A stretch of 64,000 nucleotides of DNA from Naegleria gruberi (GCA_000004985.1 GG738859.1); one strand, 5' to 3'; shown: positions 1 through 39,938, numbered from the stretch's first letter. Notes: a model not told the origin generated them from the letters alone. Made by a program: numbers and translations.

Positions 1-91
1 AGTCAACAAGTAGTAGTAGTAGTTAATAATAGTATATACACTCTTTATCACTCTCATCAATCACACACAAATACATATAAAAAGAGAGTAA

Positions 92-3000
92 ATGTCATCA
101 AAAAGATCTAATTTATTACTCTCTAAAGATTATCAAAGTAAAAAATCATCAAAACAAACAACAAATCAAAATAATGATGATGATGAAAATCTAACACAAG
201 AAGATAAAATTAATAGAAGAGTACAAAGTGTATTAAAAACACTTCCATCTAAAAAGGATGAAAATTTAATTAAATTTAAATCATTCTATGAATGTATTAA
301 AGATGTTAAAATACTTTCGGAAGTACAATTTGATACTTATAGAAAAGAAGAATCAAAGAATGAACATGATTCAACTACTTTTTTATATGATAAAATGTTA
401 GAATGGGATGAATTGAATTTAACTGTATGTTATTTATATTCTCAATATTTAATTTATAATTTACAATAATAATAGAAACATTATATTCAATTTAGATCAA
501 ATATTCAATCATTTGTTAGAACATTACCTGAAATGATACATCACAAAGAAACTATTTGTGATATTTTTGTTAATCATTTAAGAATTAAGGATTCTCTTGC
601 TTATCAACCTATTTTAGAGTAAGTAGTAGTTTTTATTTTTCATTACAATAATATTAAATATTCATTACAATAATATTAAATATTTAAAAAAACAGTCTAG
701 TAACAATATTTGCTAAAGATTTACGACAAGAATTTTATCCATTATTTCCACGTTTATTTTATCCAATAGTATATAATATAAGTTCTGATAATATAGAATT
801 GAATGGATTAATATTTAAAAGTTTAGCATTTTTATTTAAATATTTACAAAAATATATTATTAAAGATATATCATTATGGTTTGAAAAGTATAGTAAAATA
901 CTTTCACATAAGAAATGGTATATTAGAAAATTTGCAGCTGAAAGTTTTTCATTTTTAATTAACAAACTTTCAGATGAAGAATTAAAAATTTATGTTGAAA
1001 AAGTTTTTAATTTATTAATTGAAAAACCATCACAAATAATGTATGATGGTGTTAGTCAAATGTTTTTTGAATCAATGAAAGGTATTTTAGGTAATTTACA
1101 TTCTAAAATGTCAAGATTATTACCTTTATTATTTAGACAATTAAATTGGAATTTAAATTATAATGGTACTATTAAACAACAATTAGCTGATATTGGTAAC
1201 AAATTTACTTTAATTGAAAAATGTTTAATTTTATTAAGAGATTATTCTAAAAATAAGTTAATTGCTAAACAAATTTGGGATTTATTTGTTATTGAAATTA
1301 AATTTTTAATTAATTCTATTAATTTAAATAATAATAATAATAATAATCAAATTAAATATTAATAATAATTTAAATAATATTAAAAATAATTTAAATAATA
1401 TTAAAAATTTAAATAATTTAAATAATAATGAATATTTAAATATTCAAATAGGATATTTTATACAATTAATTAGAACATTTAATACTATTGAAAAATATAA
1501 TGAAGAATCAATTTATTTAATTTTAAATTTATTAAATAGTAAAAATCTATTAATAGAATTTAATGCTCAATCATCACAAGCATTATTTTCATTTATTTCT
1601 GATATAATTGAAACATTACAAAGATCAGATATAATTGAAAATGTTAATAATTTATTATTTAATTGTTTTTATATTAAAGATAAACAAACAGTTTATACTT
1701 TTTATAGAAAATTAATGAAAACAATTGGAAATGAACAAGAATCAAATACAATTGTTAAAGAATTTTTAAGATTTGTTAATGATGATATTAATTATAATTT
1801 TGATTCAACTGTTGCTTTTTTATTAAATTTTATTCATACTAATACTACTAGTAATAGTAATTTAGATACAAATTTGGAATATACTTTATTATCTGATAAA
1901 AATTCTAAATTTATTCAAATTATTTATAACAAATTTATTGAAATTATTTCAAATATTAAATCACAACAAGATTTAATTCAATTTTCAAAACAATCAAATT
2001 CTTTATTATTATTATGGTCTATTTTAAATATTTTATCTATTTATGGTAAAAAATCAGATCAATATTTAAAAAATTTATATGAAAATGTTTATAAATTTTT
2101 ATTACAATTTATTAAATTAATTGATCAAAGTCAATATGAAAAGAAGGAATTACAATTATTACAAATTATTATTGCACAATCTTTAACTTTATTAAATCAA
2201 GTTTTACATTTCTATAATAAGAATTTTAATAATTTAATTGAAATTGTTATGGAAATTTCATGTAAATTTGGTTCATCATTACAAGTTTTAATTTCATGTA
2301 ATCAATTAATTGATAATGTAGAGTAGGTTTTTATTTTAATTTTTAATTTTAATTTTATTTAATTTTAATTTAATTTTAATTTTTAATTTTAAATAGTTCC
2401 AATTTATTAACAAATGATAAATTTAAAATAATTGCAGAATCATTAAAATCCAATCTTCAAAGTAAATCTGATAATCTAAGATTAGAAACATTAAAATATT
2501 TAACTAAATTTGAACAAGATGAAATTCAAAAAGGAATTGTTCTTAATAAGGTAGAAACTACTAAATGTGTAGTTTTAGAATTTTTAAGAGATTCAGAAGA
2601 ATGTGGATTTGATTGGGATCAATCACGTAATCGTACAGTTTTATTAGAAAAGGCTAATGAATTTTTAAAACGTTACACCATTCCACAAATTTACAAAACT
2701 TTAATTTCTAATTATGTATTTGGTTCATATTTTACAAAATATCAAATTGTATGGGAACCAACAAGTAATTTAGCATCAACAATGATGAGAATTAATTTTA
2801 AAGAATTTTGGAATTTATTAATACCAATTATTTCAAATATTTATCAAAAATGTAAGTTTTTTTTAATTTTATTTAATATTTTAATTTAATTTTAATTAAT
2901 AATATAATTTAATATTTAATATTTTTAATAATATAATAATATAATAACAAATCAGATGGAGAATATAAAAAAACACATTATAAATCAATGATTTATAAAT

Positions 3001-6000
3001 CTAAAAAAAGAGATGAAGAAACTAGTTTAAATTTTGAATCATTTTCTAAACAAGTTAAAAAAATAGAAAAGATTTCAGATATAGAAACTATATTTTTAAA
3101 AATTATTAAAGATGTTTCTAAACAACATACAGATTATTCAACATATTTAGATATGATATTTAATATATTTATAAATGGAGCAAGAGATTCTAAAAAAGAA
3201 GATGATATATTATTAGTATTTAATTCCTTTTATGAAAATGAATTTAAAGAATATGATATTGAAGAAGTTGTTAATTTTATTACTAGAAATCCAATGACTG
3301 GTCGTTTAGAAAAATTATTAAATTTAATTTCAGAATTTAATGAAGATTTCTTTAAAAAGGAAAAATCTAAATTTATCAAATCAGTTATTTTTAGATTATT
3401 TTCAACTTCAACAATATCAATTCAATTATTATCTTTAAAATGTTTACAAAAGTTTAATTTACCATATTTAACAAGTAAAACTGTTAAAAATTTACAAAAA
3501 GTAATTTCATCTAATAGAAGTGTTGAACATTTATCTAAATTAGATTTTATTAATATTCCAAAACAATATAAACAAGAATATATTCATTTACATTTAAAGG
3601 TTATTGAACCTTATTTATTAATGTTTGATATGACTAAAAAGAGAGGTAAAAATTCTAAAGATGCAATGATTAAAAAATGGAAAATTAGAGTTCATCAAGT
3701 TATTGAATTTTTAGGTCAATTACCAAAAGAAACACTTGAATATTTTATTAACATGTTATTTAATAGATTTAAATCTATTGATAATAATAATGGTAATGAT
3801 AGTAATATTGATAGTAATATTGAGAGTACAAATACTAATAATAGTGATGGTAAATTTGCTGAAGATTTAATCAAGGCAAATACATTCCAGTTACGTTGGT
3901 TATTAGATATTATTGAAGAAATTTTAACATGTTTAACTGGAAATTATCATTACTTTTATAATCAAGTATTGGATTTATTAATTACTATTATTGAATTGAG
4001 AGTTGATGCTCATGAAATGGAAGTTGATCAAGAAGAAGAAGAACAAAAATTACTTGAACAACAATTACTTGAACAAGAAGAAGAAGAAGAAGAAGATGAT
4101 GAACAAGATGAATCATCCACTATTAAAGATTCTGATAGTAAATCATCTGAAAAATCAGACAAGATGACTGATGAAGTTGATGATGAAGATGATGACCAAG
4201 ATGATGATGATGATGAATCTACTGCTACTTCTATTCAAACTACTTCTACTACTAAATCAACTATTGCTAAATCTACTACTTCTACCACAACTACAACAAC
4301 TGATAATAATACTAGCTACTACTGTTAATAAGAAACCAATTATTAGACAATATTATAAACCAGCATCATCTAAACAAAAAGTATCATTAACATTAACATT
4401 TAAAAGAGCAGTTGAATTACTTGAATTATTCTTTGATAGAAAACAAGAATTTGATTATAGTATTGAATTTACATCACACGTAATTTCATTATTTACAAAA
4501 TTCTTTGAAAATATTAATAAGAAATCATCAAGAATTGAAGAATTACCTTCTTACTTTTCAATTTTATTTTCATGGTTTGATAAACCTAAACTTTATTATT
4601 TAATTAAATATTATGAAAAGGAATTAATATTTAAATTTATTGAATTAATTGATCAATATAATGTTTCTAATGTTGTATTTGATCAAGTTTTATCTATTTT
4701 TGATAAAATATTATCAAATAAGGATGAAATTTTTATGAATTTAAATCCAAACTTTTCAAAAATTACAACAGATATTGAAAATGGTTTAACTATTGGTATG
4801 AAAATATTTGAACCTTCAATTATTAATCAAATTTTAATTGCATTTTATAATTTATTTATTGAATCTAATTATTCATCTAAATCTATTAATAATAATAATA
4901 ATAATAATAATTATAAATCTAAAAATAATAGTTATAATAATAATAATAATAATAATAATAATTTAAACAAATTAAATGATGAATTAAATGAACAATCAAA
5001 TGAAAAACAAGAATTTTCTAAAAAATGTTTTAAATTAATTGATAAAATGAAAGGTTATTTTGATGAAACATCACCTGCTGATATTATTTTAACCTTTTAT
5101 GGAACATCAATTAGAGATGGATCTTCTTTAAATGAAGATGAAGCACGTGTTTTATTACATTTATTTAAAAAATATTTACCATATTCAAGTGAATCTATTA
5201 AAACATTATATATTATACATTTTTCTAAAATGTTTATTTATAATAATGAAACTATATTTAGAAATCAAATTTGTGATATAATTGAAAAATTAGCAATTGG
5301 ATTTAATAATGAAAAATTAAAATTTACATCTAAAATTATTAATGGATTAAATGCACAAATTGAATCACATTTAACAAATTTAGATACATCATCTAGAATT
5401 GAAATATTTAAAGAATTAAATTCAAATTTAAATATAATTTCAAATTTAAATGAAATTGAATTATTTCCAATTATAGGTAATTTAATATTCTTTTTAGGAC
5501 ATAAAGAATGGATATTACGTGATTCATCTTCACAATCATTATTAAATATTATTGAAATTATTAAATTTAATAATGAAATGAAAGAAATTAAAAGATTATT
5601 AATTTTACATGTTAAAAGATTATCATTTTCAGATAAATTATTAGAAAAGAGTGAATCAATGTTAGTTTATTCTAAAATGATTGATCAATTTATTGAATTG
5701 GAAAATTTAAAACCATTTTCAAAATCATTAGAATTAATTTCAAATGTTAATTATCAAAAGAAATTAGAAGGTTTACAAATTATTAATTCTATTTTAATTC
5801 CAATTGAAAAATGTAAAATTCAACAAGATTATATTTATCAAATTGTACCTCCACTCATTTATGAATTAATGGTAATTAATGATAAATCTATTCAAGATTT
5901 AGTTAAACAATTATGTATTTATTTAGTAACTGTTTTAGATTGGAATTATTCACATCCAATTTTAAATCAATTAGTTACAATGATGGGTACATATGGTTTA

Positions 6001-9000
6001 AAGGTTTTATCAAAGAGAAAGAAATTAGCATTGGATATTATATGTCAAATTGTTGATGTATTTCCATTTGATAAAATTAATGATCATGGTTTTAATAGTA
6101 GTTATAGTTATAATAATAGAAATGATAATAATAGATATAATAATAGAAGACATGAATCAGAAGAACCATTATCAAATAGTACAGTTACTATTGAAAAGGA
6201 TACTACAAATGATGATGATGATAATGATGCAGACGACAATGAAATGATTGATGAAAATGAAATTCCAAAAGGTAGAAGAATGAAGAGATATTTCATGAAA
6301 GATTTCATTCCAAAAGTAACAAAATTCCTTTGGGATAAGAAATTAGAAATTTATGTCATGCGTATGCAAGTTTGTTTCTTAATTATTAAAGTATTAAGAA
6401 GATGTGATAAAACACAATTAGATGTACATTTATCTAAAATGGTATTAGATGTATTAGGTAAATTAAAGAGTAAAGATGAAGAACAACAACAAGTTGCTGG
6501 TAAAGCATTAATTGACATGTTTAAAGAATTGGGAAGTTCATATTGAAAGTAATGTCATCAGATCACAAAACTACTCACATTATTACACAAGCTGTACATT
6601 CAGTCATGTTAATTTTATTGAATGAAAATACATATCCACCTTTAAAAACATTTAAAAAGAGAAAAGTTTCACGTTTTGATATTGAAAAGGCACAAGATTA
6701 TGAAAATCAATCATCAATAGGTGAAAATTCAGTTTCATTAACTGCATCTGATAGTTCTTCATCAAAACATTTCAAATCAAAACATGAAAATACTTTATTT
6801 AATTGTTTTGAATTATTAGGTTCAATTATTGATATTAAGAAGAGTTTATCATATATTATTAATGATATTAATTTCAAAATTAGAATTGTACATAATGCTG
6901 AAATTTTAAAGAGATTTGAATTTGTATTTAAATTTTTATTGAAAGGTTTAATGAGAAATAGACAAGTTATTCAATCTAATCAATCTATTACTAATACTAT
7001 TACTAATAATACTACTACTAAACAATCTAATCAATCTAATAATAATAGTGAAATGTTATTAAATGTAATTAAAAATGAATTATATCATTATAGATTATAT
7101 AAAAAGAATTTTACAACAATAACAGATGGAGAACAAGATAGATTTCATTCTGTTAAAACTACTAAAGATAGAAAGGAAGAAAATTTCCTTGTACAAAAAG
7201 AACCAGGTAGACTTGGTGCAATTGATCAAGCTAATGATATGAAAATGAAATTATTAGCAGGATTAATTGATAATTCACATATTATTGTACAATTTTATTT
7301 AAAAATGTTTGAAAAATGTATTAAAAGATTTAAAATTCAAGTAGATAAACATTTAGAAATGATGAATGAAATAATACCATTATTATTAAAATATGTTAGT
7401 GGTAATCATTTAAATGTAGCATTGGTTTCATTTAGAATTTTAATTGAAATTTGTAAACGTACACCTAAAGTATTTAAAATATTAGAAGATTCTAAACAAT
7501 TATTATTAAATTCTACATTTGATATATTAACAAATTCAGGTATTGATTCTACAAATTTAGAAACATGGGAAACTATATATACAGGTATTAAATATTTTTT
7601 ACAATCTGATATTTCACATAAATATCCATTATCATTAGGACAATTAGATATTTTATTAGATATGTTAAAAATTGAAATTTCATCAACTAGAAAAACCTAT
7701 TCAATTCAAACATTTCAAATTTTATCAAATTTAATTGATAATAAGGTACAAATACCACAAATTTATGATTTAATGGATAAATCAATTACAATTATGTTAA
7801 CTACACTTGAAATGGAAATACAAAAAACTATAGTTGAAATGTTGGTTAATTTTTATTTAAATTATCCATTTACAAATGAAGTATTACAAGACAAGTTAAA
7901 TTATTTATTTAAAAATGTTTTAAATGAAAATATGTCAAATGAATCTAAATTATCAATTTTAAATTTAATTCAAACTATAATTAAAAAATTTCCAAATAAT
8001 TTCCTAAATGATAAAACTGAATTAATTTATTATCCTCTAATTTTAGAATTAGAAAAACAATGTAAAAAACGTGTTATTGCAGGTGATAACAAATCAATTT
8101 CATCAATTGTTTCAAAATTAAGAGAAACTTTACAATTTTTTATTAAAATATTAAATGATGAAAATTTAATTAAAATTATTAAAATTACAAATGATTGGAT
8201 TTTAAATGAAAAGAAATTAAAACCAATTGGAGTTAATTCTATTTTAATTTTATCAAATGTATCAAATGGTAGTAAATTAAAATCATCATCAGAATTTTAT
8301 GAAAATATGATACCTCAATTAATTTCTATAATTGAAAATTCAGATACAAATTTAGAAAAATATCCAAGTTTAGTATTAGAAACATTGGAATGTTTTTATT
8401 CATTATTTTCACAATCTATTATTTCATTCCAACATGTTGATGAAATTTGGAATTCCTTATTAAAAATAATTTGTGATGAAAATGATTTGAGAAGTGAAAT
8501 TAGATTAGAATCTTTGAAAATCTTTGAATTATTTGTTTCTAAAAAGAAGAAGAATGAATCTAAAATTTTAAATCATTTACAATATTTAGAACAAATGTCA
8601 ATTTCAATTATAGAATTATTTAAATCACAATATATTAATGATACAAATGTAATTGTAATTGTTAAAGTTTTAATTTATTTATTTAAATTATTAGATTCTA
8701 ATAATGGAAGTGAAATTTTACATAAATTATTTAAATCTTTACGTAAAATTTCAAATCAAACATTTGATTTTGACACCAATGAAAATATTACATTTAGAAG
8801 AATGAATATTTTAAAGTTATTTATAGGTTTAGCTTCTAAATATGGTAATCAATTACAACCTTATTTAATTTACATGACACCATTAATTTATAGATGTTGT
8901 GAATTTTCAAATAGAGATAAATCAATTGTAACAATTGAATTGGAGAAATTTGCTAAAGAATCTAAACAATTAATTCAACAATCATTAACAGATTCAAATT

Positions 9001-9242
9001 TATTTGTTCAAGCTTATGAAGAAGGTAGAAAATTAGTTGAAAGTAAAAGTGAAAAGAAATCAAAATCTAAAGAACAATCAATCATATCAAAACCATCACA
9101 ATATGCTAAAAAGAGATTGGAATCAAATTCTAAAAAGAATGATACTAAAAAGAGAAAGTTAAAAGAATCTTTTAATCAACCAACTGTACAAATATCATCA
9201 TCTGGTAATGTACAACAAGTTAAAAAGAAGAAGAAGAAGTAA
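92..9242 (+). CDS. UTP20: UTP20 (small-subunit processome component 20 / DRIM) homolog. Multi-exon gene: E1 92..424, E2 476..618, E3 696..2322, E4 2397..2851, E5 2956..9242.
   Basis: Strong matches to UTP20 N-terminal blocks: WDELNLT|KHYIQF (human WRELNLTEHFGKF), DSLAYQPILDLV (NSFAYQPLLDLV), KDISLWFEKYSKILSHKKWYIRKFAAESFSFLINKLSD (KDMSSIYSMYSTLLAHKKLHIRNFAAESFTFLMRKVSD). Lys-rich C-terminus. Introns with GTATGT/GTAAGT/GTAGGT donors at 425..475, 619..695, 2323..2396, 2852..2955 restore frame. Three further frame breaks (about 1328-1359, 4290-4325, 6525-6543) are not explained by canonical introns. Confidence 0.8.
4886..4966 (+). repeat. (AAT)n coding microsatellite (poly-Asn tract) inside UTP20. 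Representative of many such tracts in this window.
   Basis: Perfect aat repeats read directly in the sequence. They translate to NNNNNNNN in the gene frame. Confidence 0.7.
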
Positions 9243-9412
9243 TTTAATTTAATTGATTTGGAAATTGAATTGATTTGAATTATATAATAAAATAAATATT
9301 ATTTAAAATGTTATTGGTGAATATTGTGAATTCATATATGACATGTATTGATAGAGAGAGATGATTCTCATTGTCATTTTGAAACATTTGGTAGTTATCA
9401 TGATTAATTAAA

Positions 9413-11662
9413 ATGTTAAATTTGCTTGTACAAACTTCCAATACCAATACTACTAGTCAACAACAACATGAACAACAACATGAACATTCTCATCATAATG
9501 GAACATGTTCTGCACCTATTAATATTGTGAATAATCAATCATCATCATCATCATCCTATTTAACAACAAATCATTCACCATCACATTCACTAGTTGTGAA
9601 TTTAAATGAAAATCATACCATTAATACATTAAATCATCATCATCATCACTCTAATAATATCAATAATAATATAAATAGCAATCAACATCATTCTACCAGT
9701 ACCAGCACTAGTAATATTAATAGTAATAGTTTAAATAATCAAAATATTGAAAATAAATTAAAAAAGAAAAAGAAAGAAGAAACATGTCAAAAACAATCCA
9801 CCACTATTAATAGTAATAATAATAGTATTATTAATAGAAATCATCGTATTTCAAATAATTCATCATTATTTCCTAATAATACTACTAATACTCATAATAA
9901 TACTACTACTCATAATAATACGAATACTCATAATAATAATACGAATACTAAAAAATCCAATCATTCTAATATAGCTTGGAATGGAAAAGTAAATCATACA
10001 AATATATCAAATAGTAATATGACTATTAATAATACATTATCAAATAATAATACAAATAACAATAATAGTAATGGTAATAGAGAGAGTAATAATAGTAATA
10101 TATCATCAACCATTCATCATCACAATCATCATACTCATCACCATAATCATCACAATCACCACAATAGTAACCATAATTATCAGAGTTTACCACCTCAATC
10201 AAGTACAAATGCTTTTTCATCTTCCTATCAACAACAACAACATAGTTTTTATTCCGAAAAAAGTTTTAACAATTCATCTTCTTCATCATCAACATCAAAT
10301 AGTACATTAAATAATTCAAATAATAATAATAATATGGGCAGTACTACAAATAATCATCATCATCACCATCAACATCATCATCGAAATAATACTAATAATA
10401 ATAATAGTATGAATAAGAATGGTAAACAAAGAATGAATCATCAATCCAATAATAATAATAGTAATAATAATAATAACAATGAAAATAATTCATCATTTAA
10501 AAGAATGAAAAATAATAATTTATATGAATTATTATTAATATGTAAAAGTAGAACAATTATTAATGATCAATTTAATATTTCTTTACCTGATACAAATATA
10601 TATAGCTTTTTTAAACATGTAACACCTAAATATAGTAGTTATGAAAATCAAGAATTATTAAATAATTATAAATTAAAAGATTTATGGAATTTTTATGATG
10701 AACCATATGGTGTTGGTATTCCAATTAAATTACCAAAACATTCAAATAGAGAGAGTGTTTATTTTGTACCACATTTAAGTGCAATTAAATTAGTTGCTAC
10801 TAATATTAATACTACTACTACTACTAGTAGCAGTACATTAATTAATAATATTAATAATATTACTGAATCAACAACTGAATCAATAACATCTAATAGTAGT
10901 TCTAATAGTAGTAGTAATAATAATGTGACTTGTAATACTTGTAATAATCAACAACAACAACAATTGAATGATCAAGCAGCTGATGAAAATTCAGATAAAA
11001 TTTTATTTGAATTTTATGAAACAGTTACACCTGATTTGAGATATCCATTCATTGATAAAATGGAAGAATTATCTAAGGATTGTCCATTCTTAATGGAAGG
11101 TACAATTAGTGAATTAAATTTAGATAAGAGTTGGTTTTCAATTGCATGGTATCCAATTTTATGTCATAATCATACAATGAATTGGTTAAAAGGACAAATG
11201 ATTACCTATCACAAATTATCACCATCCTATCATGCTATTGATACAAGCTTTTTATCTTGTGTTAAACCTAAAAATGAATTTGATGAATTAATTAATGAAA
11301 AGAAATTATCAGCAAATTTGAATATTAATAATAATAATAGCAGTAATAGTAGTAGTACATCAACATCACCAGCTTTATCAAATATTCAATATTATTCACC
11401 TATTATTGGATTCTTACCTTACAAATTAAGAAATGAAACTTGGTTTTATGATTTTAAGAGAGGAAATAATCAATTAACAGCACCACTTTATTTATTACAA
11501 TCTTGTCATAGATTACAACGATTCTCCAATCCAAATACTATGCATCCTGATTACCATCATTGTTTGAAAAATAGTCCAGAATTAGGTCTCATTCCACATT
11601 TCCATCAATCCTCAAACAATAACCATCACAACAATAATGGTAATAACTCAATAAAAGAATAG
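9413..11662 (+). CDS. DUF789-domain protein with His/Asn/Ser-rich low-complexity N-terminal half
   Basis: C-terminal block ILFEFYETVTPDLRYPFIDKMEELS...DKSWFSIAWYPI matches the plant DUF789 signature (xxFEYFExxxPYxRxPLxDKI ... SWxSVAWYPIYRIP). Single 749-aa ORF. Poly-His runs HHHHHS and HHHNHHTHHHNHHNHHNSNHN. Confidence 0.7.
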   Translation: MLNLLVQTSNTNTTSQQQHEQQHEHSHHNGTCSAPINIVNNQSSSSSSYLTTNHSPSHSLVVNLNENHTINTLNHHHHHSNNINNNINSNQHHSTSTSTSNINSNSLNNQNIENKLKKKKKEETCQKQSTTINSNNNSIINRNHRISNNSSLFPNNTTNTHNNTTTHNNTNTHNNNTNTKKSNHSNIAWNGKVNHTNISNSNMTINNTLSNNNTNNNNSNGNRESNNSNISSTIHHHNHHTHHHNHHNHHNSNHNYQSLPPQSSTNAFSSSYQQQQHSFYSEKSFNNSSSSSSTSNSTLNNSNNNNNMGSTTNNHHHHHQHHHRNNTNNNNSMNKNGKQRMNHQSNNNNSNNNNNNENNSSFKRMKNNNLYELLLICKSRTIINDQFNISLPDTNIYSFFKHVTPKYSSYENQELLNNYKLKDLWNFYDEPYGVGIPIKLPKHSNRESVYFVPHLSAIKLVATNINTTTTTSSSTLINNINNITESTTESITSNSSSNSSSNNNVTCNTCNNQQQQQLNDQAADENSDKILFEFYETVTPDLRYPFIDKMEELSKDCPFLMEGTISELNLDKSWFSIAWYPILCHNHTMNWLKGQMITYHKLSPSYHAIDTSFLSCVKPKNEFDELINEKKLSANLNINNNNSSNSSSTSTSPALSNIQYYSPIIGFLPYKLRNETWFYDFKRGNNQLTAPLYLLQSCHRLQRFSNPNTMHPDYHHCLKNSPELGLIPHFHQSSNNNHHNNNGNNSIKE

Positions 11663-11719
11663 TTTTTTTTAAAGTAATAGTTTTCACATTGTTTTCTCTT
11701 CACAAACTCTGATAATTTA

Positions 11720-14700
11720 TTATTCAGATTCTAATTGATTTGAAAGTTCTAATGCTTCTGATTGAGTTTGAATTAAATCTGATGGAACATCAACACATAA
11801 AATCTTAATTAAATATGGAATAGATTCAAAATTATATCCAACTTCTTGATAACTCTTAAAGTGTTGTAAAATCTCTACCAATTTAATACATTTACCAAAG
11901 TTAATAAATATAGTACCATTTGATTGTCTAAAGGTAGGTTCAATATCACATTCTTTCAATTCATCTAAATAGGAATTTACCAATGGAATGATTGGTAATT
12001 TAATTGAATTTAATCGATTAATTAAATTCTCTCTTGCTTGTGGATTTTTATCTGAAAAGTAAGTTTCATGATATAAACGATAAATCTTTTTAGATTCCTT
12101 TGACCAACTCTTATTTAATCTCAAAATGGCATGATTACTCAATCCACAATATATTGAATATAATCCAAATAAATTATTCATGGCAAATAATTCTTCACAT
12201 ATTTGATTAAATTTGTTAATAATTTCAATTCTCTTATTTAAATCTCTTTCACGTAAAATTAAAGTCACAACCCACAATTCACAATCTCTCTTTCTCTCTA
12301 ATAGTGAAGAGAGATGTGGTAAATAATCTTTTTGTTTGGTGGATGCACAAATTTCCTTATTATCAATTTGTTTAAAGAATTCAAAATCTATTAAAGTTAA
12401 TTGTCTTGCAATTTCAGTTGAATTCCATGCAAGTAAATCAAATGAAGGAACAAATGAAGTTAGTAAATTCAATTTCAATTTGGAAAATCCATTTGGAATG
12501 ATTGGATTTGGTTTCTTTTTAGAATCTTCATTGGATTGTTCTTTAATTCCCAATAAACAATTAATGAGTGATGATTTAACTTGTTCTAACAAGTAAAAAC
12601 ATTCAAATGCAACTTGTTTAATAACAAGTGTCAAATCATTATCTAAAAATTGAATTAAATTACAAATGAATGGTTGTGTCATATCTGTGAAATGTTTTTC
12701 AATCCACAACTTGATTGAAAGTGTAATATTTAACACCATTTCACTCTTATGTTCAATTTCAGGATCTTGAGCAAATTTAAATAAAATCTGACGAATCATG
12801 AGCAATAATTGATGTGGTGTTGTAAAGAATAAATAACTTGAAAAGAATATCTCTGCATAGGTTAATTTAAAATCCAAATTATTGTTGTTAGCAACATTTG
12901 CACCACCACTACCATTTGAAATATTTGATTGTAAATTACTATTACTTGATTGAGTATTGTTATTAATTGGAGATGATACTTGATTATTAGATGATGATAG
13001 CAGTAAACTATTTGTATAAATATTTGGATTGATAAATAATTTTTCAACAAGATTTTCCAATTTTGAAAAATTCATCTTTTCCAACTCCTCAACTGATAAA
13101 TGTGGAGTATCTCTATTAACATGTAAAGTACCACCCAATTTTAATAGATATTCCTTATGTGATTGTTGTTTTTGTATTAAATCTTCAATTGAATCAACTT
13201 GTTCATGTTGATAAATTTCAATCAAATCGTACAAGACATCACGAACACTTGAAAAAGTTTCAGTCAAAGTTGGGAAATAACAATAGGATAATACACTTGC
13301 TAATATTGATTTCCATTTAGGATTTCTATCTGAAAGTAATTGTGTTAAATGTGTTTTATCAAATGTTAAATGTGACATTCCAATTTTAGCTGTTAATTGT
13401 GTTGGAATGTTAAATTGTTTTGTTGTTGTTGTTGATAGTTTAATATTACTTTCATTAGAATTATTAACATCACTATTATTACCACCATTATTATTATTAG
13501 TATTATTACTATTGTTATTATTATTACTATTAATATTAATATCATTTAATTTAATATGTTCATTAATAAATATAAAAGGTTTAAAAGTTTCTAAAAATGG
13601 TTCTAAATAAGATTGAAATAAAACTCTCTTATGTTCTGAATCCAAATAAGGAGATAATAAAACAACAGATAAAAGGAAATGTAAAGACTTGTCAAAAATT
13701 TCATAAAAAACTAAAGTTTGTGAATCATTTTCATAAATTGAAATTGTCAATTCATCAATTAATTGTTTCATTTCCATTGAACATGTTTCATCACTGAAAC
13801 CTCCTTGACCTTGACCTCCTAATAAATGATTAATTAGTAAATCTTTAAATTTAGATAAAAGTTGATTTGTTTTTTCACTAAATATTTCACTTTTAGGTTT
13901 TAAATATAAATTTACAATAATCTTGTTAAATAATTCCATATAAACTTCATGAAAACAAATTTGTACTTGATTTTGATTATGAATATTCATTAACATGACA
14001 GTTACTTGTAAAATGTCAACTAATGAAAGAATTTTTTCAGATTCAAGTGAAGAGAAATATTCAACAATCTTTTCATCACTTGAATTCTTTAAAATGTGAT
14101 AAAAACATGCAAATAAATCTCCCAATTCATCTTTAAATGTAATACAATCAGAAATTGAATCTTTTTGTTCAATTACTTTTTTAACAAAATCAAAATATAA
14201 ATTTCCAATAAAATTTCGATCTTTTTGTGATTGAATTCTAGAATCAAAATCTAATTTTGTTAAATGATTCTTTAAAATTCTCAATGATAAACCTTTCAAT
14301 TCATCAGTTTTTTGTGTTAAACCATAAATAATACAATCAATTAATTTGGAAATTATAAATTGATTCTCAGAATTTTGAATAATAAAGAAAATATCATCAT
14401 GTTCAATAAATAATTCAAGAAATTGTAAAATATAGAAAATTGCAACATCTCTTGTCTTGTCATTTGATAACTTGTCTTGGAAATAACTAAAATATTCAAT
14501 CATTATTTCTCTAATATATTTAAAATCAAGAATTGGAACTAAATCTCTCAAAAATAATGAAAAATCCAAATTAAAATTGGTAGCAGCTGCATAAATAGCT
14601 GCATCTTTAAATCTCTTCTCATAACACTCCAATAGGAGAGGTGCAATGGTGTGAATTAATTGTTTCAATCGACTCATGAAAATGTTTGGATCAAATTGTT

Positions 14701-17700
14701 GAGAGGAAACCTTTTTAAATTCCTCATCTCTCACAATGTGAATATTCTTTGTAATCAAATCAAAGAAGAACCAACCAAATTTGATTACATCAACTCCAGT
14801 AAAGGAAATTTCAGAGACTTTTCTAGGATTTGCCTCAGCAATAATCTTTTGAGTATTGAAATCGTCAATGACAATTTGTTTTTGTTTGCTACTGCTGCCA
14901 CCACCACTGCTGCTGCCAGTTGAAGAAGTGTTGGATACTTTTCTCCTCTCACGTGTGATAAAATCCTTAAATTCCTTCACTTGACCCTCTGCTTGTTTTC
15001 CATTGGGTCTAGTTTCCATCGAGGTGAATAAAAAGGTAGAAATTTGTTTGTGTGAATCAATATTCTTTGCCAAACCATTTTGTGGTTTAAAATTGAGATC
15101 AGAAACCTTTGGTGAAAAGACTCCCAACTCTATGATTGGTTTCTTTCTATCTTTTTGTCTTGATTCTTGCCAATTTTGAATGAAATTTAACATTTCATCC
15201 ATTAACATTTTGTATAATGGTTCTTCCATATCTGGATATTGTCTTGAAAAGTAAGAAATAAAAGTTGAAATGTAATAATTATTTCTACCAAATGAAGAAG
15301 AAACAGTTTCAATTCCACTTAAAAAGAATAACAAACATGACATGGCACGTGAAATAATTTCAGGTACAATAACCTTAGTTCTAGTTCCATATTGATTAAA
15401 ATTCTTAATTATAACCAATGTTGATAATAAAGTTAAAAGACCATTAATTACTTTTGGAGTGTGATTCAATAATTCTGCAAAATTAGCATCTCTTAAATTA
15501 TCTAACTTTGACATGACATCTAATAATATTTCCTCTCTATTAACATCTTCATTCTTTTTAGTAGATTCAAATGTATTGTAAAATCTATCACATGCATCAA
15601 GGAATGAAGCAGCAAATGGATCTTGAGTATAAAAAGAAGTTAACGCTTTTGTTTTGATATTTAAATAAGATGAATGTGACATTGGAATATCTGTTTGTAA
15701 ACTTAAATAATTATCAACTAATTTTGGTGATTTAAATATTGTTAAAGTATGATAACCATCTTTTACAATACAATGATTAGTAACATCTCTTAAATATGCA
15801 AAACCAATTAATTGAGTATTTGTAATACCATCAGATGAAATATCCATATCACTATTTTGTGGAGCTTTTCCATCTAAACCTTTTGAAATATCCAAATCAA
15901 AAAATTCAAATAAAACATGTGACTTGTCAACAATATTGGCAGATGATGGAATTTCCAATCTAATTTCGTCATAAAATTGAGGTGAAATTTTCTTAAATGT
16001 GATTGAAGAATAAAAATAGTTAAATCTATTAGAATCATTAAATGAATCTGCCATTCTAGATTCTCTTGTTGAAGTGATCATATCATTCTTCTTATATGAA
16101 ACTTTAATATAAATATTACCAGTTTTAGAAAGTGAAGATAATTCACATGTATCTAAATAAATATATAAAGTATTTCTTAAATTAAAATCAAATTGATAAT
16201 AATCTTTAGAGTTATGAAGTGATTCAACAACTGGAAATAATTTGTAAAATGTATCGAGAACAGAGAATGATCCCTTCGATTTGTCCAATCTTTTCATAAC
16301 AGTTTCAATGACATGATCATCCTGATCTGTTTTAAACATGGAAAAATCATTCTTGAATCGCATACTGGTATGAGATTGTTGAGAGGAAGCTTTGGATTTT
16401 CGAGTGGAGAAGGCATGTAAATAGGATGCTAATTTATCTCTCGTAGCTGTATTAGTTTGAAATAGGAAACGAATTGGGAGATTATTCTTATCATCATCCA
16501 TATTAAATGTTGTTGAAAAATCACTGCCACCACTACCTTGAATAGGTAAATTAGTTGAACCATTACTTGATAACCATTTTAAGAATGTTAATACATCAAA
16601 TGAACTTGAAGAATGTGATGGTATTCTATAGGCCTTGTTAATTTTAACTTGACCTTCTAATATTTCAATGGAAGAATTATCATTTTCATCTCGATTTTCA
16701 TAGAAAATCTTTTGACCCATTACAATGAATGGTTGTCTCAACATACTCGCTCTCCAATAATCATTCATTTGTGTGAGATATTTCTTCATTAACTTTTCAT
16801 TATTGGATTTATAGGCTTTCCATGCATCTTCTATTAAACCTCCACAAAATACCTTTTCAATGGTGAATGAAATGTAAACTTCTGTATGTTCTGGTTTTTC
16901 AAATACAAATAAAGCAGATGCCTTTTCAAAATTTTGTCTCTTGTTAATATTCTTAATATGTCTCTGTGTGGAATTTGCCAATTTGTTCATTGAAAATCCA
17001 TCACTACTTGATAGAGAATGTTTAGGTTCAATAAAGAAACAAAAATCTTCTGTCAATTTAACTTCAGATTTGATATCATAGAGTGAAACTTTACAAAATA
17101 AAGGTTCAGGTAAACCAAATTTTGAAAGTACAAAATCTTCATATTCAAATATTAAATACATCATCTTATCAATATTATTATAGAGTGGTTGAACTTTTCT
17201 AGTTCTGTGACATCTTTCAATTTCCTGTCCACCATTCCAAATAAAATCATTATTATAATAGGAAATTACTCTATATGGATTTTCTAATTCATATTGTGTA
17301 ATGACATTTTCTTTAAATTTAAATCCTTCAATTCTTTTTAAATCTTTAGGTCTAATTCCTTTAGCTTTAAGTTTTGTAAAAACTGATTCATTCTTCTTCT
17401 TCTTTCCGTAGAGTTGTTCATGAAGTTGTGAAACTGATTCACCTGAAATGATATCCATTTTACTCTTCTCAATATCGTGATGATGATGATTTGAGAAATT
17501 ACCAGCACTCATACTAACAGTTTGTTGTCCTGTAGTACCAATAGTATTATTATTATTATTTGAATAACTTGTTGATTCATCGAGTGAATTGGTTGAGCTT
17601 TCAAATTCCTTCTTTGGTTTTCTTCTAATAAAATCAAAGAATGAAGCTCTATTAACTTGTTTTTGCTTATTCAATTCAGAAATATGACCAATACTTCTAA

Positions 17701-19726: not shown

Positions 19727-20390
19727 TGTTGTAATACCAATATTGTGTTAAAGGCTTCTTGGTAGTACTCTGGAAGGAGTTCAACAAACACTATTGGAAA
19801 ATGTGAAGATTATTTTTTTTAAAAAGAGCTCTTGTCAAACAAAAGAGACATAACGGTAATTTGGTTTGACATTTTGACAGCCACTGACGAAGAGTTGACG
19901 TCCCAGTGTTAAAATTGTTAACACAACCGAAATGGTTCTAACTCTTTTGAGATCCTCAATTAAATTGTTAAGAATTCGGTACATACAATAACAACCAAGC
20001 AACTCATGATGGTTATGTGTAGGTTCGTTTCATAAATTGATTTAAAAAAAGGCTAAATTATTCAACACTACTGTTGGTTGTTTTTTTGTTGCATCACAAC
20101 AAATTGTTATTTTAAATATTGCTTACCTAATGATATTAATTGCCTCACACATTATCATGATAGGAGGGTGAACGTGACATTAAATTAGTTGGGAATGTAT
20201 GAATATCTTGAAAATTTCATCAACATGTTGATGCACCAATATATAATTTCTTCCATCATAAGAAAAGGCTTTTTAATAATTCACAAGCTACAACAATATC
20301 CAAAACAAAAAGCCTTCATCAACAGCCAGACAGCGTTCAACAATATTTTAGAATATTTTTAGGAGGGAAAAAAGAAAAAATTGAAAAAAA

Positions 20391-36608: not shown

Positions 36609-39312
36609 TTAAGCTGTTTCCAATGGTGAGTCCAACTAGATAAAATTTTGTAAATTTTGAAATCTCAATAAAACTTACAGAAAATAGCCATACCAATAAG
36701 AAAAACCTCAGTCATGAAATAAATACCACTGGCTGAATCTTTTGATAAAAAGGCAGAAAAACCTCTCCATGAAAGAGAACCAGGAACCAAAAGTAAAGTT
36801 GCAACAGAGTTAATGAGGAGTGGTGGATGGTTTGTTATGAGTGAATAAATATTACTTCCAACACCAGTCTGTCAGAGATGATGATAATAATTCGGTTTAA
36901 AAACAATTGAATGTGTGAAAAATACTTACAACAATACCAGCAATGACAGTTCCCAATTCTGATCCCAATACGTTACTGGTATAGAATGCAGTAAGGTGAA
37001 CAGAAAGAGTCACAACCACTAGACAAAAATAGGTAAAGAAATACTTTGGTACCTTAGCGTCTATTCCAATAGCAATGGCAAGAACAATAATGGCTACAAT
37101 ACGCATAGGCAAGGAAAGATCTGTTCTTGTTGTGCCAACTTTTTCACTAGCTGCAAATGCAGGGAATAAATTAACCATACCATTAGTAATAAGTAAACCG
37201 AAACCCAATTTCAAAACTGTAGAAAATGCACTGACAAGTCTGGATGTACCTGAAACTAGAGATCTTGCCTGAATTTCATTAATACCAATCATAATCGTCA
37301 CACCAGGTAAATAATAAAAACTCAAACAAAGGCAAATCAGGACCACACTCACATAACTAACATCCCACAAAATAAATTTGAATATAATTCCACATAGCCC
37401 TCCAACCACACTCGCCACAATAACTGAAACGTTTGAAAAGAAGGCAATCCTCGAACCATAAACCATGAATATACCAATTATAATACCACCAATAAAACAG
37501 GTCAAAACTTCTCCAACAGTTCCATTCCACAACATGACATAGAATCCACAAAAAACAAACATGTTAAAAACTGTAAACATTGGATGTGAATAAATAGGAG
37601 GCTCCATAATAACTTCAGCAATTTTTTCTTGAGCATCCTTCAATGGAAGTAAACCATCAGAAATATCGTGAGCTATAGAATCCAATTTGGTCAATTTGTT
37701 TAAATCTGTAGTTTGACTTTCAATTTTAACAAAGTAAGACACATTTGATGGATCTCTTGGTTTTGTACCAAAACTGTACCAAATACCTGTTGGAATACTA
37801 TTTTCAAATTTGTTAATAAAAATCTTCCTAGATTTTAAATAATACGTACCAGAAGAAATAACCATCCATTCCAAAATATGTGCTTACCAAAGACAAGTGA
37901 TATTCAACTCTATTAGAAGGTAATCCATAAATTGACAAGGCATATCCTAAATCCAAAAGTAAGGAGTGAACTCTATTCTTATCCTCTCTTGTTAATTTTT
38001 GATAAGGGATTACATATCTCTTTTCTATTTCAAATTTTCCTGTAACACACCACAACATGGCTTTTTTAAGCTTTTCAGATAGGGAATGATTTGTCCTTTC
38101 GTCTTCTTCTGGAGCCATTTGATCTTCCATTTTTTGCTTTCCTCTTTTGAAAAGCCAATTTTTAACTTTTCGTTTTGTTGATGGTAGCATTGGTACAGGA
38201 TTTGATTCCAAATAAATTGGTTTTTTAGAAAATTCACTTTGAGCCAATCTCTTTTGTTCACTCGATAATTTAAAAGAATTAAGTGATCCAGAAAATTCTG
38301 AATGTGAATATAAATCCGATACTGTTGAGTTTGTTTCCTCATATAATGATTCCAAATCATTGAAAGAAGATGTTCTTGATAAATTTCCAGAACTAAAGTT
38401 ATTTGCATTATTTTCCACAGAGTACATATCATCCTCTGAATTAATATTATTTAACATTGCTGTATTACTAACAGCACTCGAAGAAACCATAGCAGAAGCA
38501 CCACCAAAAGAGCTCGGATTGTTTGATAGTGTTGTTGAAAGGTCAAATATTGGAGAAGCTCCAGATAAAAATCCATTCGGAGGTAAATTAGCACTAATAT
38601 TCTTTGATGGTACAATAAATGTCTTGGGAATATTAGAATTAGTGGATGGAATTATTCTTGATGCAGATCCAAAATCAACAATATATTCCTCATCATCATT
38701 ATAGTCATCAACATCATTATTCCTTGTTGGAAAAGTTGCTTGATTATTCAATCTTTCTGGAGAGGTAATTGTAGGGGAGGTAGGAGAGTCTTTGTATTCG
38801 TCTTGAAGTCTTGATGCCATAGTTTGCTTTTCAAGATTAGAAGAAGAATGAAAACTAGAGAGAATGTGAGGAGGTTCCATATCTTCAAAAGATTCCTCAT
38901 CATCTTGTGATGGTAGGAAATGATCATCATTCATATTATAGGGTAAACTCTTTGTAGTTGTCAGCAAGTGTTTGATATTGGAACTACTTTTTGAAGGAGT
39001 AACACTATTAATAAGAAGAGGAGAAACATTTGGATTGATACTCATCCTACGACCATTGTTTGATGTACTTGTTACATTACTAACAGTATTATTATTGTTA
39101 ATATTATTATTGAAAGAAGACGGTATTGTTTTTAATTGTTCCGTAGATGAAATACTATTACTAGTAGCATTAACAATATTTGATGATGTTATTGTTGTAT
39201 TGTTGTTGTTGTTGCTATTGATGATTGTTGTGGGTGATGATGAATTTACATTCGGAATTTGTGAAGGCTGAACATTACCCTCACCACCACTACTACTATT
39301 ATCTTGTAGCAT
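36609..39312 (-). CDS. ThrE/DUF1212-DUF3815 family membrane protein (Prm10-like). Exons about 39312..37860, 37797..36930, 36868..36679, 36635..36609.
   Basis: RVHSLLLDLGYALSIYGLPSNRVEYHLSLVSTYFGMDG is the hallmark DUF1212 block. It is followed by about 10 TM helices. A Ser/Asn-rich N-terminal region. Three short introns with GTACGT/GTAAGT donors. Confidence 0.55.
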
Positions 39313-39938
39313 TTTGTTCTCTAAATATTATGTAAATATTCAAGTAGTGAATGATACAACTGCCCTAGATATCCTCCAATCAATAAATGAATGCTACTAT
39401 TCAACAATATTAAAATCAAGCAGATATTATTGAAAATTCTTTTTTTCGCTCTTTTTTCACCATTGATGAAGGTGATACCTCTCAACATATTACGCGCACA
39501 AACATCACCCAATTTTGGATTGGTAGCCATTCCCATAAAATTCCAAGCACAATTAATATTGGTGTTTTAATTGATATAATGGTATAATGCTTCTGTCGAG
39601 AATGTGCTTGGAAAGTTTGGTATGGCATAATGCAAGTCACAACATGATGAGATTTATGAAGTGAAGACTTGCATAAAAATTGAAGGGGAATGTCCAGCTT
39701 TTTCACAGTTCTTCATAAGATTTTGTGATGGAGAGGCTAAGACAATGCCGCTGTTTGTCAGAGGTCAGATGTTCAAGACCACCTACCTGTCAACAAAATG
39801 TCAACTGTTCAATAACTAAATTCGATAAATGTTAAAAATAACAATTATATTAATAACAATAAAATAAGAATAGCTCAGCCAAACCATGTCGCTATTTAAA
39901 AAAACCTCAGAAAAAAGAAAGTCAATAACAAAAAAGAA

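What the first reader, a model, noticed from the sequence alone, without database searches (positions are those of the whole stretch)
1328..6543. Three reading-frame discontinuities inside an otherwise intact UTP20 gene
UTP20 is an essential ribosome-biogenesis factor, and long flanking ORF segments argue against pseudogene decay. The frame nevertheless changes three times.
- Within an (AAT)n tract at about 1328-1359. The only GT-AG alternative is a 163-nt intron with a very weak GTTATT donor (1288..1450).
- In a Thr/Asp-rich tract at about 4290-4325.
- At about 6525-6543 (gaattgggaagttcatattgaaag), where no intron is possible.
These could be assembly indels, real polymorphisms or frameshifts, or non-canonical processing.
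Basis: seen in the sequence. Interest (0 to 1): 0.5.

Follow-up and report, generated by a model that had tools for sequence, protein, structure and literature searches.

The report
Three sequence lesions in Naegleria UTP20
The essential ribosome-assembly gene UTP20 of the amoeba Naegleria gruberi (not a slime mould) is broken in this reference sequence by two tiny repeat-slippage indels and one 88-base deletion; these are most likely draft-assembly or cloning errors, or else a dead allele, and not unusual biology.

Summary
One gene (92..9242, +) changes frame at 1328-1359, 4168-4325 and 6525-6543. It is UTP20 of Naegleria gruberi (RefSeq XP_002678942.1, NAEGRDRAFT_65627), not of a dictyostelid.

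None of the breaks is an intron.
- An intact orthologue in a metagenome contig (L001) reads through all three places in one frame. N. lovaniensis (L002) does the same at sites 1 and 3, and at site 2 over the residues the RefSeq intron would remove.

The lesions:
- Site 1 is a 1-nt (or 2-nt) length change at CAAA (1348-1351), inside an A/T-only tandem array.
- Site 2 is a 1-nt (or 2-nt) change at about 4314, inside an (ACT)n threonine tract.
- Site 3 is not a simple frameshift. 29 conserved codons plus 1 nt (88 nt) are missing, apparently deleted between TATT direct repeats.

There are no slippery sites, no stable downstream structures and no sign of relaxed constraint. The gene is extremely AT-rich (19.5% GC, GC3 8%).

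Most likely these are consensus or cloning errors of the 2010 Sanger draft (about 0.55-0.6). A real null allele in polyploid NEG-M is the main rival (about 0.3). Only reads can decide. Interest is low.

The parts
92..9242 (+). UTP20 (small-subunit processome component 20) gene of Naegleria gruberi, locus NAEGRDRAFT_65627. The conceptual repaired product is 2947 aa, or about 2976 aa if the 29 missing codons are restored.
   Evidence: frame map and translation; best hit P0001, a N. gruberi predicted protein; accession, and the real exons of the model match the window (about 99-100% identity in the HSPs that do not run into a model junction). PF07539 and PF20416.
425..475 (+). Genuine intron 1 (51 nt, GTATGT..TAG, 88% AT).
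   Evidence: The spliced product matches P0001 and the orthologues.
619..695 (+). Genuine intron 2 (77 nt, GTAAGT..CAG, 87% AT).
2323..2396 (+). Genuine intron 3 (74 nt, GTAGGT..TAG, 95% AT). It is absent from L001 and from N. lovaniensis.
2852..2955 (+). Genuine intron 4 (104 nt, GTAAGT..CAG, 95% AT).
1305..1450 (+). A/T-only tandem-repeat array (periods 3, 9, 21 and 39) encoding an Asn-rich insert specific to N. gruberi. It hosts site 1.
   Evidence: TRF, 5-14% indels; only one G and one C in 1321-1439, and no GT or AG in 1328-1359.
1328..1359 (+). Site 1: overlap of frame 1 and frame 2 (+1). The lesion is localised to CAAA at 1348-1351, that is one extra base or two missing bases after (AAT)7.
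   Evidence: The orthologues are continuous here.
4273..4323 (+). (ACT/CTA)n threonine-tract microsatellite hosting site 2.
4311..4317 (+). Site 2: switch from frame 3 to frame 1 (+1). 'ACT A GCT ACT ACT' has an extra A at 4314, or a lost CT. The formal frame overlap is 4168-4325.
   Evidence: The downstream 'YYKPASSKQK' is conserved in P0082 and in N. lovaniensis P0084.
6525..6543 (+). Site 3: overlap of frame 1 and frame 3 (-1). The deletion junction lies at 6540-6543 (TCA TAT|TG AAA). 29 conserved codons plus 1 nt (88 nt) are missing relative to every orthologue.
1223..1679 (+). RefSeq-model 'intron' that skips site 1 (457 nt, GTTTAA..AAG). It removes about 152 conserved codons and is a gene-prediction workaround.
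4324..4363 (+). RefSeq-model 'intron' that skips site 2 (40 nt, GTTAAT..CAG). It removes the conserved Y-[YF]-[KR]-P.
6536..6591 (+). RefSeq-model 'intron' that skips site 3 (56 nt, GTTCAT..AAG, 70% AT). It removes the conserved 'LKVMS...ITQA'.

Best explanation
The window carries the single annotated UTP20 gene of Naegleria gruberi NEG-M. Its deposited sequence contains three small lesions, each of a slippage type:
- a 1-nt (or 2-nt) length change at an A-run next to (AAT)7, inside an A/T-only tandem array (1348-1351);
- a 1-nt (or 2-nt) change inside an (ACT)n tract (about 4314);
- an 88-nt deletion that removes 29 conserved codons of the PF20416 domain (junction 6540-6543).

From the N. lovaniensis sequence, the deletion appears to lie between two TATT direct repeats.

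The lesions are not introns and are not decoded by any special mechanism. The real gene is expected to be one continuous reading frame of about 2976 codons interrupted only by four ordinary introns.

The most likely origin is consensus error in the 2010 Sanger draft. At 80% A+T and GC3 of 8%, this is the most AT-rich part of the window. Such DNA clones poorly in E. coli, suffers direct-repeat deletions there, and tends to be thinly covered.

Shown here: the lesions, their exact places and kinds, the absence of introns, and the continuity of the orthologues. Inferred: that the cause is an artefact rather than a real allele.
For: Identity:
- P0001 (XP_002678942.1) matches the window over the model's real exons (about 99-100% in HSPs that do not run into a model junction), and its model jumps precisely the three sites.

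Orthologues are continuous:
- L001, a Naegleria-like metagenome contig with conserved synteny, has a 686-codon frame and a 1991-codon frame spanning all three equivalents.
- N. lovaniensis L002 is continuous across the equivalents of sites 1 and 3, and at site 2 across the conserved residues that the RefSeq intron would remove.

No intron fits:
- There is no GT or AG in 1328-1359, and only one G in 1321-1439.
- The candidate introns have weak donors. The two short ones are 40 and 56 nt (the latter only 70% AT) and the third is 457 nt. The four real introns are 51-104 nt and 87-95% AT with GTAAGT-like donors.
- All candidates delete residues conserved in 2-5 orthologues.

Site 3:
- tblastn gives two HSPs that overlap by 4 nt, with 28-29 query residues unmatched anywhere in the window.
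- This is the only N. gruberi-specific gap of 6 aa or more in the whole 5-sequence alignment.
- The PF20416 match continues across the break but drops from 94 to 52 bits.
- N. lovaniensis DNA '..ACG TATT TT..AGTT TATT GAAAGTG' against N. gruberi 'TCA TATT GAAAGTA' shows the direct repeat.

Sites 1 and 2 lie in TRF arrays that contain indels.

No decay:
- The 332-, 792- and 905-codon frames would be open by chance with P of 1e-16 to 1e-43.
- At outgroup-invariant columns there are 15 N. gruberi-only changes against 21 in P0082.

No recoding signals: downstream folds have z-scores of +0.2 to +0.75.

Context:
- The gene is 19.5% GC with GC3 of 8%. The rest of the window is 30-35% GC, and the genome is reported as 35% (PMC6125883).
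- The same gene in the PacBio-only N. lovaniensis assembly has at least 4 frame breaks at other positions and is annotated as five genes. Draft-consensus breaks in this long, low-complexity gene are therefore commonplace (PMC6125883).
Against: - No reads, traces or transcripts of N. gruberi could be reached, so artefact and real allele cannot be told apart directly.
- An 88-nt deletion and microsatellite slippage are mutation-like events rather than base-calling errors.
- The adjacent 2.2-kb and 8-kb genes (21-29% GC) have no breaks at all. Low coverage would therefore have to be confined to the most AT-rich 9 kb.
- Local read depth is unknown to me. The genome-wide average of about 8x is from memory, not from a paper I read.
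Confidence: 0.57

Rival explanations
1. The lesions are real but sit on only one haplotype, or some haplotypes. On this reading NEG-M, a clonal, heterozygous and probably polyploid laboratory strain, carries a dead UTP20 allele that the collapsed consensus happened to follow. An intact allele supplies the essential function. After the first disabling hit, further slippage events accumulated neutrally in this hypermutable, very AT-rich sequence.
For: - All three lesions are slippage or direct-repeat events typical of in-vivo mutation.
- Neighbouring genes are clean.
- Extreme AT bias (GC3 8%) points to an unusual local mutational regime.
- Intact downstream frames and normal constraint fit a very recent or heterozygous lesion.
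- From my own recollection of Fritz-Laylin et al. 2010, NEG-M is heterozygous. I could not read that paper here.
Against: - It needs three independent hits on one allele without a single in-frame nonsense substitution in about 2950 codons.
- The consensus would have to pick the dead allele at all three sites.
- No allelic second model exists in the protein collection: the P0001 cluster has one member.
Confidence: 0.3
2. The breaks are bridged by real, if unusual, introns, as in the RefSeq model (1223..1679, 4324..4363, 6536..6591) or the reader's 1288..1450. The mature mRNA would then be in frame, and the protein would simply be shorter.
For: - GT..AG boundaries exist for each, and they restore the frame.
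- N. gruberi does have introns as short as 44-52 nt.
Against: - Each candidate removes residues conserved in other Naegleria, Willaertia and more distant orthologues: CLILLRDYSKNK.., EIKFLINSIN/IQIGYF, Y[YF][KR]P and LKVMS..ITQA.
- The donors (GTTTAA, GTTAAT, GTTCAT, GTTATT) are unlike the GTAAGT-type donors of the genuine introns recognised in the window.
- At site 3 the 29 conserved codons would still be missing.
- The orthologues have no introns at these places.
Confidence: 0.03
3. The locus is a recently disabled pseudogene, homozygous for the lesions, and a second functional UTP20 copy elsewhere in the genome does the work.
For: There are three disabling lesions in one gene.
Against: - Only one N. 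gruberi UTP20 protein was found, although those searches proved erratic.
- Synteny with L001 and N. lovaniensis marks this locus as the orthologous one.
- There is no relaxed constraint and there are no in-frame stops.
Confidence: 0.03
4. The lesions are real and homozygous, and full-length protein is made by recoding. That would mean +1 ribosomal frameshifting at 'UAU UAA U' (1357-1363) and 'UGU UAA U' (4323-4329), and a -1 shift near 6540.
For: - Both +1 sites end in U-UAA-UAA, which superficially resembles stop-codon-stimulated +1 shifting.
- The downstream frames are clearly maintained.
Against: - The U-UAA-UAA context follows from AAT/AAR codons read out of frame in an 80% AT gene.
- There is no X XXY YYZ heptamer in 6525-6543.
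- Downstream RNA is no more stable than shuffled sequence.
- Frameshifting cannot restore the 29 missing conserved residues.
- The related sequences examined need no shift at these positions.
Confidence: 0.02

Closest known systems
Consensus indel errors in draft eukaryote assemblies; for example the same gene in Naegleria lovaniensis GCA_003324165.2, a PacBio RSII assembly polished only with Quiver
   Same: A long, low-complexity, essential gene is broken into several frames. Gene predictors respond by splitting it or by inventing introns. N. lovaniensis UTP20 is annotated as five genes with at least 4 frame breaks, at a Thr tract, a T-run, an A-run and one ordinary site (PMC6125883).
   Different: The N. 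gruberi assembly is Sanger-based, the breaks are at different positions, and one of them is an 88-nt deletion rather than a homopolymer miscount.
Direct-repeat (slipped-strand or microhomology) deletions and microsatellite slippage in very AT-rich DNA, in vivo or in E. coli shotgun clones, as is familiar from the Plasmodium and Dictyostelium projects (my own knowledge)
   Same: The deletion junction carries a 4-nt repeat (TATT), with the copies 88 nt apart in the N. lovaniensis sequence. The other two lesions lie in (AAT)n/A-run and (ACT)n arrays. The local DNA is 80% A+T.
   Different: The undeleted N. gruberi sequence is inferred from N. lovaniensis and was not observed. Whether the slippage happened in the amoeba or in the cloning host is unknown.
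Heterozygous loss-of-function alleles in clonal diploid or polyploid microbes
   Same: An essential gene has disabling lesions, yet there is no long-term decay.
   Different: No second allele has been seen, and three hits on one allele would be unusual.
Programmed ribosomal frameshifting: +1 at stop codons as in Euplotes, antizyme or RF2; -1 at slippery heptamers with a pseudoknot
   Same: In-frame stops are followed by a long conserved frame at +1 or -1.
   Different: There is no slippery heptamer and no stimulatory structure. The breaks are not conserved in relatives. One site lacks 29 codons that no frameshift could supply.

Membership tests
UTP20 / DRIM small-subunit processome component | Pfam UTP20_N (PF07539) and UTP20 (PF20416) domains above the gathering score | tested here: met
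   PF07539 at 71.8 and 44 bits on the two sides of site 2; PF20416 at 33.7 bits ending exactly at site 3. PF20416 at 51.8 bits across the joined site 3.
UTP20 / DRIM small-subunit processome component | Full-length collinear similarity to UTP20 orthologues of about 2500-2900 aa | tested here: met
   The gene is collinear with Willaertia P0002 (39% identity), P0003, P0085 and P0082 (61-63%), and with vertebrate and yeast UTP20.
UTP20 / DRIM small-subunit processome component | C-terminal domain PF23099 | tested here: not met
   One search finds no Pfam hit on 6546-9239. The heterolobosean orthologues P0001-P0003 also lack a precomputed PF23099 hit, so this reflects divergence of the clade and not the lesions.
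Spliceosomal GT-AG intron at each break | GT..AG boundaries that restore the frame, with the donor type, length and composition of the genuine introns recognised in the window (GTAAGT-like; in this gene 51-104 nt and 87-95% AT, elsewhere in the window as short as 44 nt) | tested here: not met
   Site 1 has no GT or AG in the overlap. The candidates are 457, 163, 40 and 56 nt long, with donors GTTTAA, GTTATT, GTTAAT and GTTCAT; the 56-nt one is only 70% AT.
Spliceosomal GT-AG intron at each break | The removed sequence is not conserved coding sequence | tested here: not met
   Every candidate removes residues conserved in other Naegleria and in Willaertia.
Spliceosomal GT-AG intron at each break | Spliced transcripts observed | not testable with these tools
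   No N. gruberi RNA data could be reached.
Programmed ribosomal frameshift | A slippery site in the correct register (-1: X XXY YYZ) or a shift-prone +1 site conserved among relatives | tested here: not met
   no heptamer in 6525-6543; the relatives have uninterrupted frames at all three places.
Programmed ribosomal frameshift | A stimulatory downstream RNA structure | tested here: not met
   MFE of -7.2 to -9.5 kcal/mol per 120 nt, z-scores of +0.19 to +0.75 against shuffles.
Decayed pseudogene | Relaxed constraint: in-frame stops and an excess of changes at invariant sites | tested here: not met
   There are no in-frame stops once the three lesions are bridged, and 15 lineage-specific changes against 21 in P0082 at invariant columns.
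Decayed pseudogene | A functional paralogue elsewhere in the genome | tested here: inconclusive
   One search found only one N. gruberi protein, but the searches are erratic and the genome itself is not searchable here.
Assembly, sequencing or cloning artefact | Independent reads disagree with the consensus, or local coverage is very low | not testable with these tools
   No reads or traces are available. Indirect support only: extreme AT content and analogous breaks in another draft assembly.

The most novel reading that the evidence does not exclude
The three lesions are genuinely present in every genomic copy in NEG-M, and the cell still makes functional UTP20 by recoding: +1 shifts at U-UAA-UAA at sites 1 and 2, a -1 shift at site 3, and tolerance of the loss of one conserved HEAT helix. 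A milder version is also possible (probability about 0.3, interest about 0.3): a real, multiply hit null allele preserved in a polyploid clonal strain inside an extraordinarily AT-rich chromosomal domain with GC3 of 8%.
Probability: 0.02. Interest if true: 0.8.

Novelty: not a real feature. Interest (0 to 1): 0.13.

Why it matters
The main value is annotation hygiene.

- The RefSeq/UniProt protein for N. gruberi UTP20 (XP_002678942.1 / D2V9U0, 2543 aa) is about 400 residues short. Gene prediction jumped the three lesions, and three unbroken stretches as well, with invented introns. Comparative studies of the SSU processome in Discoba inherit that error.
- The corrected model given here has four real introns, two single-base repairs and an 88-nt gap. 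It can be checked directly against public reads.

If the lesions proved real, they would document allele decay in a clonal polyploid protist within an unusually AT-rich domain. That would be of modest interest. Only the very unlikely recoding scenario would be important.

Tried and rejected
1. Rejected because it removes 'VIEIKFLINSIN..' and cuts 'IQIG', both conserved.

2. My first repair of site 3 as a 1-nt deletion in GGGAA ('ELG-KFILKV'). Rejected after P0003 and P0082 showed that 'GSSY' in frame 1 is conserved and that 29 residues are missing.

3. The idea that the frame-1 read-on 'CHQITKLLTLLHKLY' (6550-6594) is the missing GYQ helix. Rejected: frame 3 aligns codon for codon with L001 and N. 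lovaniensis ('LKVMSS..ITQAVH'), and codon statistics favour frame 3.

4. The missing 29 codons relocated elsewhere in the window. tblastn found nothing.

5. The overlapping ORF pair 36900-37883 / 37831-39327 (-) as another frameshift. It is an ordinary intron.

6. Independent N. gruberi sequence:
   - The look-up of encoding contigs on five queries (four window ORFs and the RefSeq model P0001) returned nothing.
   - Both metagenome scans were empty.
   - The second and third word-index protein searches were uninformative; they missed even P0001.

7. The Fritz-Laylin 2010 genome paper is not held. Literature searches gave nothing on errors at this locus.


Full report
**What is there.** A three-frame map of the first 9.6 kb and base-level translation show one + strand gene from the ATG at 92 to the TAA at 9240-9242.
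- Four frame changes or interruptions are ordinary introns: 425..475, 619..695, 2323..2396 and 2852..2955. Their donors are GTATGT, GTAAGT, GTAGGT and GTAAGT. They are 51-104 nt long and 87-95% A+T.
- Three further frame changes have overlapping open frames and no such intron: f1 to f2 at 1328-1359, f3 to f1 at 4168-4325, and f1 to f3 at 6525-6543.
- A codon-usage log-odds profile trained on the unambiguous parts of the gene places the switches at about 1340-1355, 4300-4320 and 6525-6545.
- The frames on either side stay open for 332, 792 and 905 codons. At this composition a stop is expected every 9.6 codons, so P(open by chance) is 1e-16 to 1e-43.

**Whose gene it is.** That is wrong.
- The bridged 2947-aa product hits 'predicted protein [Naegleria gruberi]' first, then Willaertia magna, then UTP20 of animals and yeasts.
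- The top hit is XP_002678942.1 / NAEGRDRAFT_65627 / D2V9U0. Over the model's real exons it matches the window (about 99-100% identity in the HSPs that do not run into a model junction). The window is therefore the deposited NEG-M sequence on which that model was built.
- Pfam confirms UTP20: PF07539 lies on both sides of site 2, and PF20416 ends exactly at site 3.

**How the public model copes.** The 2543-aa RefSeq model jumps each break with an invented intron:
- 1223..1679 (457 nt, GTTTAA..AAG)
- 4324..4363 (40 nt, GTTAAT..CAG)
- 6536..6591 (56 nt, GTTCAT..AAG, 70% AT)

The candidate is poor, however.

**Orthologues.** An exhaustive profile-free search with the frame-1 segment recovered two useful relatives.
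- P0082 is a 1967-aa protein, 63% identical, from ENA metagenome contig ERZ27315067:k141_328158. Fetched as L001, the contig shows the same gene order as the window: UTP20, then a DUF789 gene, then a long gene on the minus strand. Its UTP20 consists of a 686-codon frame and a 1991-codon frame. Together they span the equivalents of all three sites without interruption.
- N. lovaniensis (L002) is continuous across the equivalents of sites 1 and 3, and at site 2 across the conserved residues discussed below. It has at least four frame breaks of its own at other positions: a Thr tract, an ordinary site near 8310, a T-run and an A-run. As a result it is annotated as five genes. That assembly is PacBio RSII polished only with Quiver (PMC6125883).

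**Site 1.**
- The residues 'VIEIKFLINSIN' (frame 1) and 'IQIGYFIQLIR' (frame 2) align with:
  - 'VKEVEHLIKTWK' and 'NQIGHAIQLVR' in L001
  - 'VKEFEYLIQVWR' and 'LQIGHAFQLIR' in N. lovaniensis
  - equivalent residues in Willaertia and P0003
The RefSeq 457-nt intron is refuted for the same reason.
- Between the two blocks lies an Asn-rich insert specific to N. gruberi. It is encoded by an A/T-only tandem array (TRF periods 3, 9, 21 and 39). The stretch 1321-1439 has only one G and one C, and the 1328-1359 overlap has no GT or AG at all.
- The poly-Asn reading (AAT)7 is in frame 1 and the following N/L/I/K repeats are in frame 2. The lesion therefore lies in CAAA at 1348-1351, as one extra base or two missing bases.

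**Site 2.**
- The acidic and Thr/Ser-rich tract is in frame 3. The Thr codons continue in frame 1 from 4315: 'ACT A GCT ACT ACT GTT'. The lesion is therefore an extra A at 4314 or a lost CT, inside a TRF (CTA)n array.
- Downstream, 'YYKPASSKQKVSL' aligns with 'YFRPGSTKQKVSL' in P0082 and 'TFKPKSSKQKVSL' in N. lovaniensis P0084. These are residues that the 40-nt RefSeq intron would remove.

**Site 3 is different in kind.**
- All orthologues carry a conserved block between 'ELGS.Y' and 'L.VM'. In both Naegleria relatives it reads 'FNFMLEKMKSVLSEEGYQTDTLYIVLESL'. Willaertia, P0003, P0085, a turtle and a yeast carry equivalents.
- In the window, frame 1 ends '..KELGSSY*' and frame 3 resumes 'ILKVMSSDHKTTHIITQAVHSVMLILL'. 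The latter aligns codon for codon with 'LLNVMSNNSTKTATITQAVHNVMLILV'.
- tblastn gives two HSPs that overlap by 4 nt. It leaves 28-29 residues unmatched anywhere in the 64 kb.
- This is the only N. gruberi-specific gap of 6 residues or more in the whole alignment.
- The missing piece is 29 codons plus 1 nt, or 88 nt. That explains the -1 frame change.
- N. lovaniensis reads '..ACG TATT TT AAT .. AGT T TATT G AAA GTG ATG'. N. gruberi reads 'TCA TATT G AAA GTA ATG'. The junction therefore looks like a deletion between two TATT direct repeats 88 nt apart. This is an inference, because the undeleted N. gruberi sequence has not been seen.
- PF20416 still aligns across the joined break (52 bits), against 94 bits for the intact relative.

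**Not recoding, not old decay.**
- There is no X XXY YYZ heptamer within 6525-6543.
- The 120 nt downstream of each stop fold no better than shuffled sequence, with z-scores of +0.19 to +0.75.
- The U-UAA-UAA context shared by sites 1 and 2 is what AAT/AAR codons give when read out of frame.
- No frameshift could supply 29 missing residues.
- Once the three lesions are bridged, the product has no in-frame stop.
- At columns invariant in three outgroups, N. gruberi alone departs 15 times, against 21 for P0082. Constraint has therefore not been relaxed for any appreciable time.

**Context.**
- The gene is 19.5% GC and its third codon positions are 8% GC.
- For the same gene, the orthologues are 32-38% GC with GC3 of 29-44%.
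- Later in the window GC is 30-35%. The genome is reported as 35% (PMC6125883).
- GC rises steadily from 18% at the start of the window to about 30% by 20 kb.
- The two adjacent genes (2.2 kb and 8 kb, 21-29% GC) have no breaks. Every other same-strand ORF junction in the window that looks like one gene is explained by a GTAAGT-type intron.

**Verdict.** The three discontinuities are real in the deposited sequence. They are lesions of the sequence, not introns and not a decoding mechanism.
- All three are slippage-type events in the most AT-rich DNA of the window. Whether they arose in E. coli clones or thin Sanger coverage (my preferred reading, about 0.57) or in one allele of a heterozygous polyploid laboratory strain (about 0.3) cannot be decided without reads.
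- I could reach no independent N. gruberi data.
- Three things tilt me towards an artefact. Very AT-rich inserts are unstable in clones and poorly covered (my own knowledge). There are no nonsense changes on the supposed dead allele. The same gene is visibly broken by consensus errors in another Naegleria draft.
- Three things tilt the other way. The lesions look like mutations. The neighbouring genes are clean. Local coverage is unknown.
- Public Illumina, Nanopore and RNA-seq data for NEG-M (GSE287846 and S-BSST1363, cited in PMC12344493) would settle the matter quickly.

Noticed in passing
window 1-20000 (against 20000-64000): There is a steep GC gradient: 18-21% GC over the first 10 kb, rising to 30-35% beyond 20 kb. 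UTP20 has GC3 of only 8% and the next gene 12%. The orthologous genes in L001 and N. lovaniensis have GC3 of 29-44%. This is a strongly AT-skewed domain specific to N. gruberi, and its cause is unknown.
   Followed up: partly
window 92-9242 (RefSeq XP_002678942.1): The public 2543-aa model also skips three stretches where the frame is not broken at all: 'VYNI|NISLWF', 'NIYQK|SRDSKK' and 'DEAR|HKEWIL'. In total about 400 residues of conserved UTP20 sequence are missing from the database entry.
   Followed up: partly
L002 5091-14958 (N. lovaniensis PYSW02000026.1): UTP20 is annotated there as five separate genes, including C9374_006161 and C9374_006162. The cause is at least 4 frame breaks, at about 7250, 8310, 9960 and 11490, in an assembly polished only with PacBio reads. 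The breaks lie mostly in homopolymers or a Thr tract.
   Followed up: yes
L001 1-16817 (ENA ERZ27315067 k141_328158): An unnamed metagenome contig carries a Naegleria-like UTP20 (61-63% identical, 38% GC) in the same gene order as the window: UTP20, then a DUF789 gene, then a long minus-strand gene. It seems to be the most complete Naegleria-type UTP20 sequence I could find.
   Followed up: partly
window 2323-2396 and 2852-2955: Intron 3 of the N. gruberi gene is absent from both L001 and N. lovaniensis. The intron 4 position appears to be shared with L001 but not with N. lovaniensis. This implies intron gain or loss within the genus.
   Followed up: no
window 4887-4962, 4071-4112, 4163-4216: Other long period-3 arrays in the same gene, (TAA/AAT)25, (GAA)14 and (GAT)18, remain in frame. 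Low-complexity tracts are therefore not broken indiscriminately.
   Followed up: no
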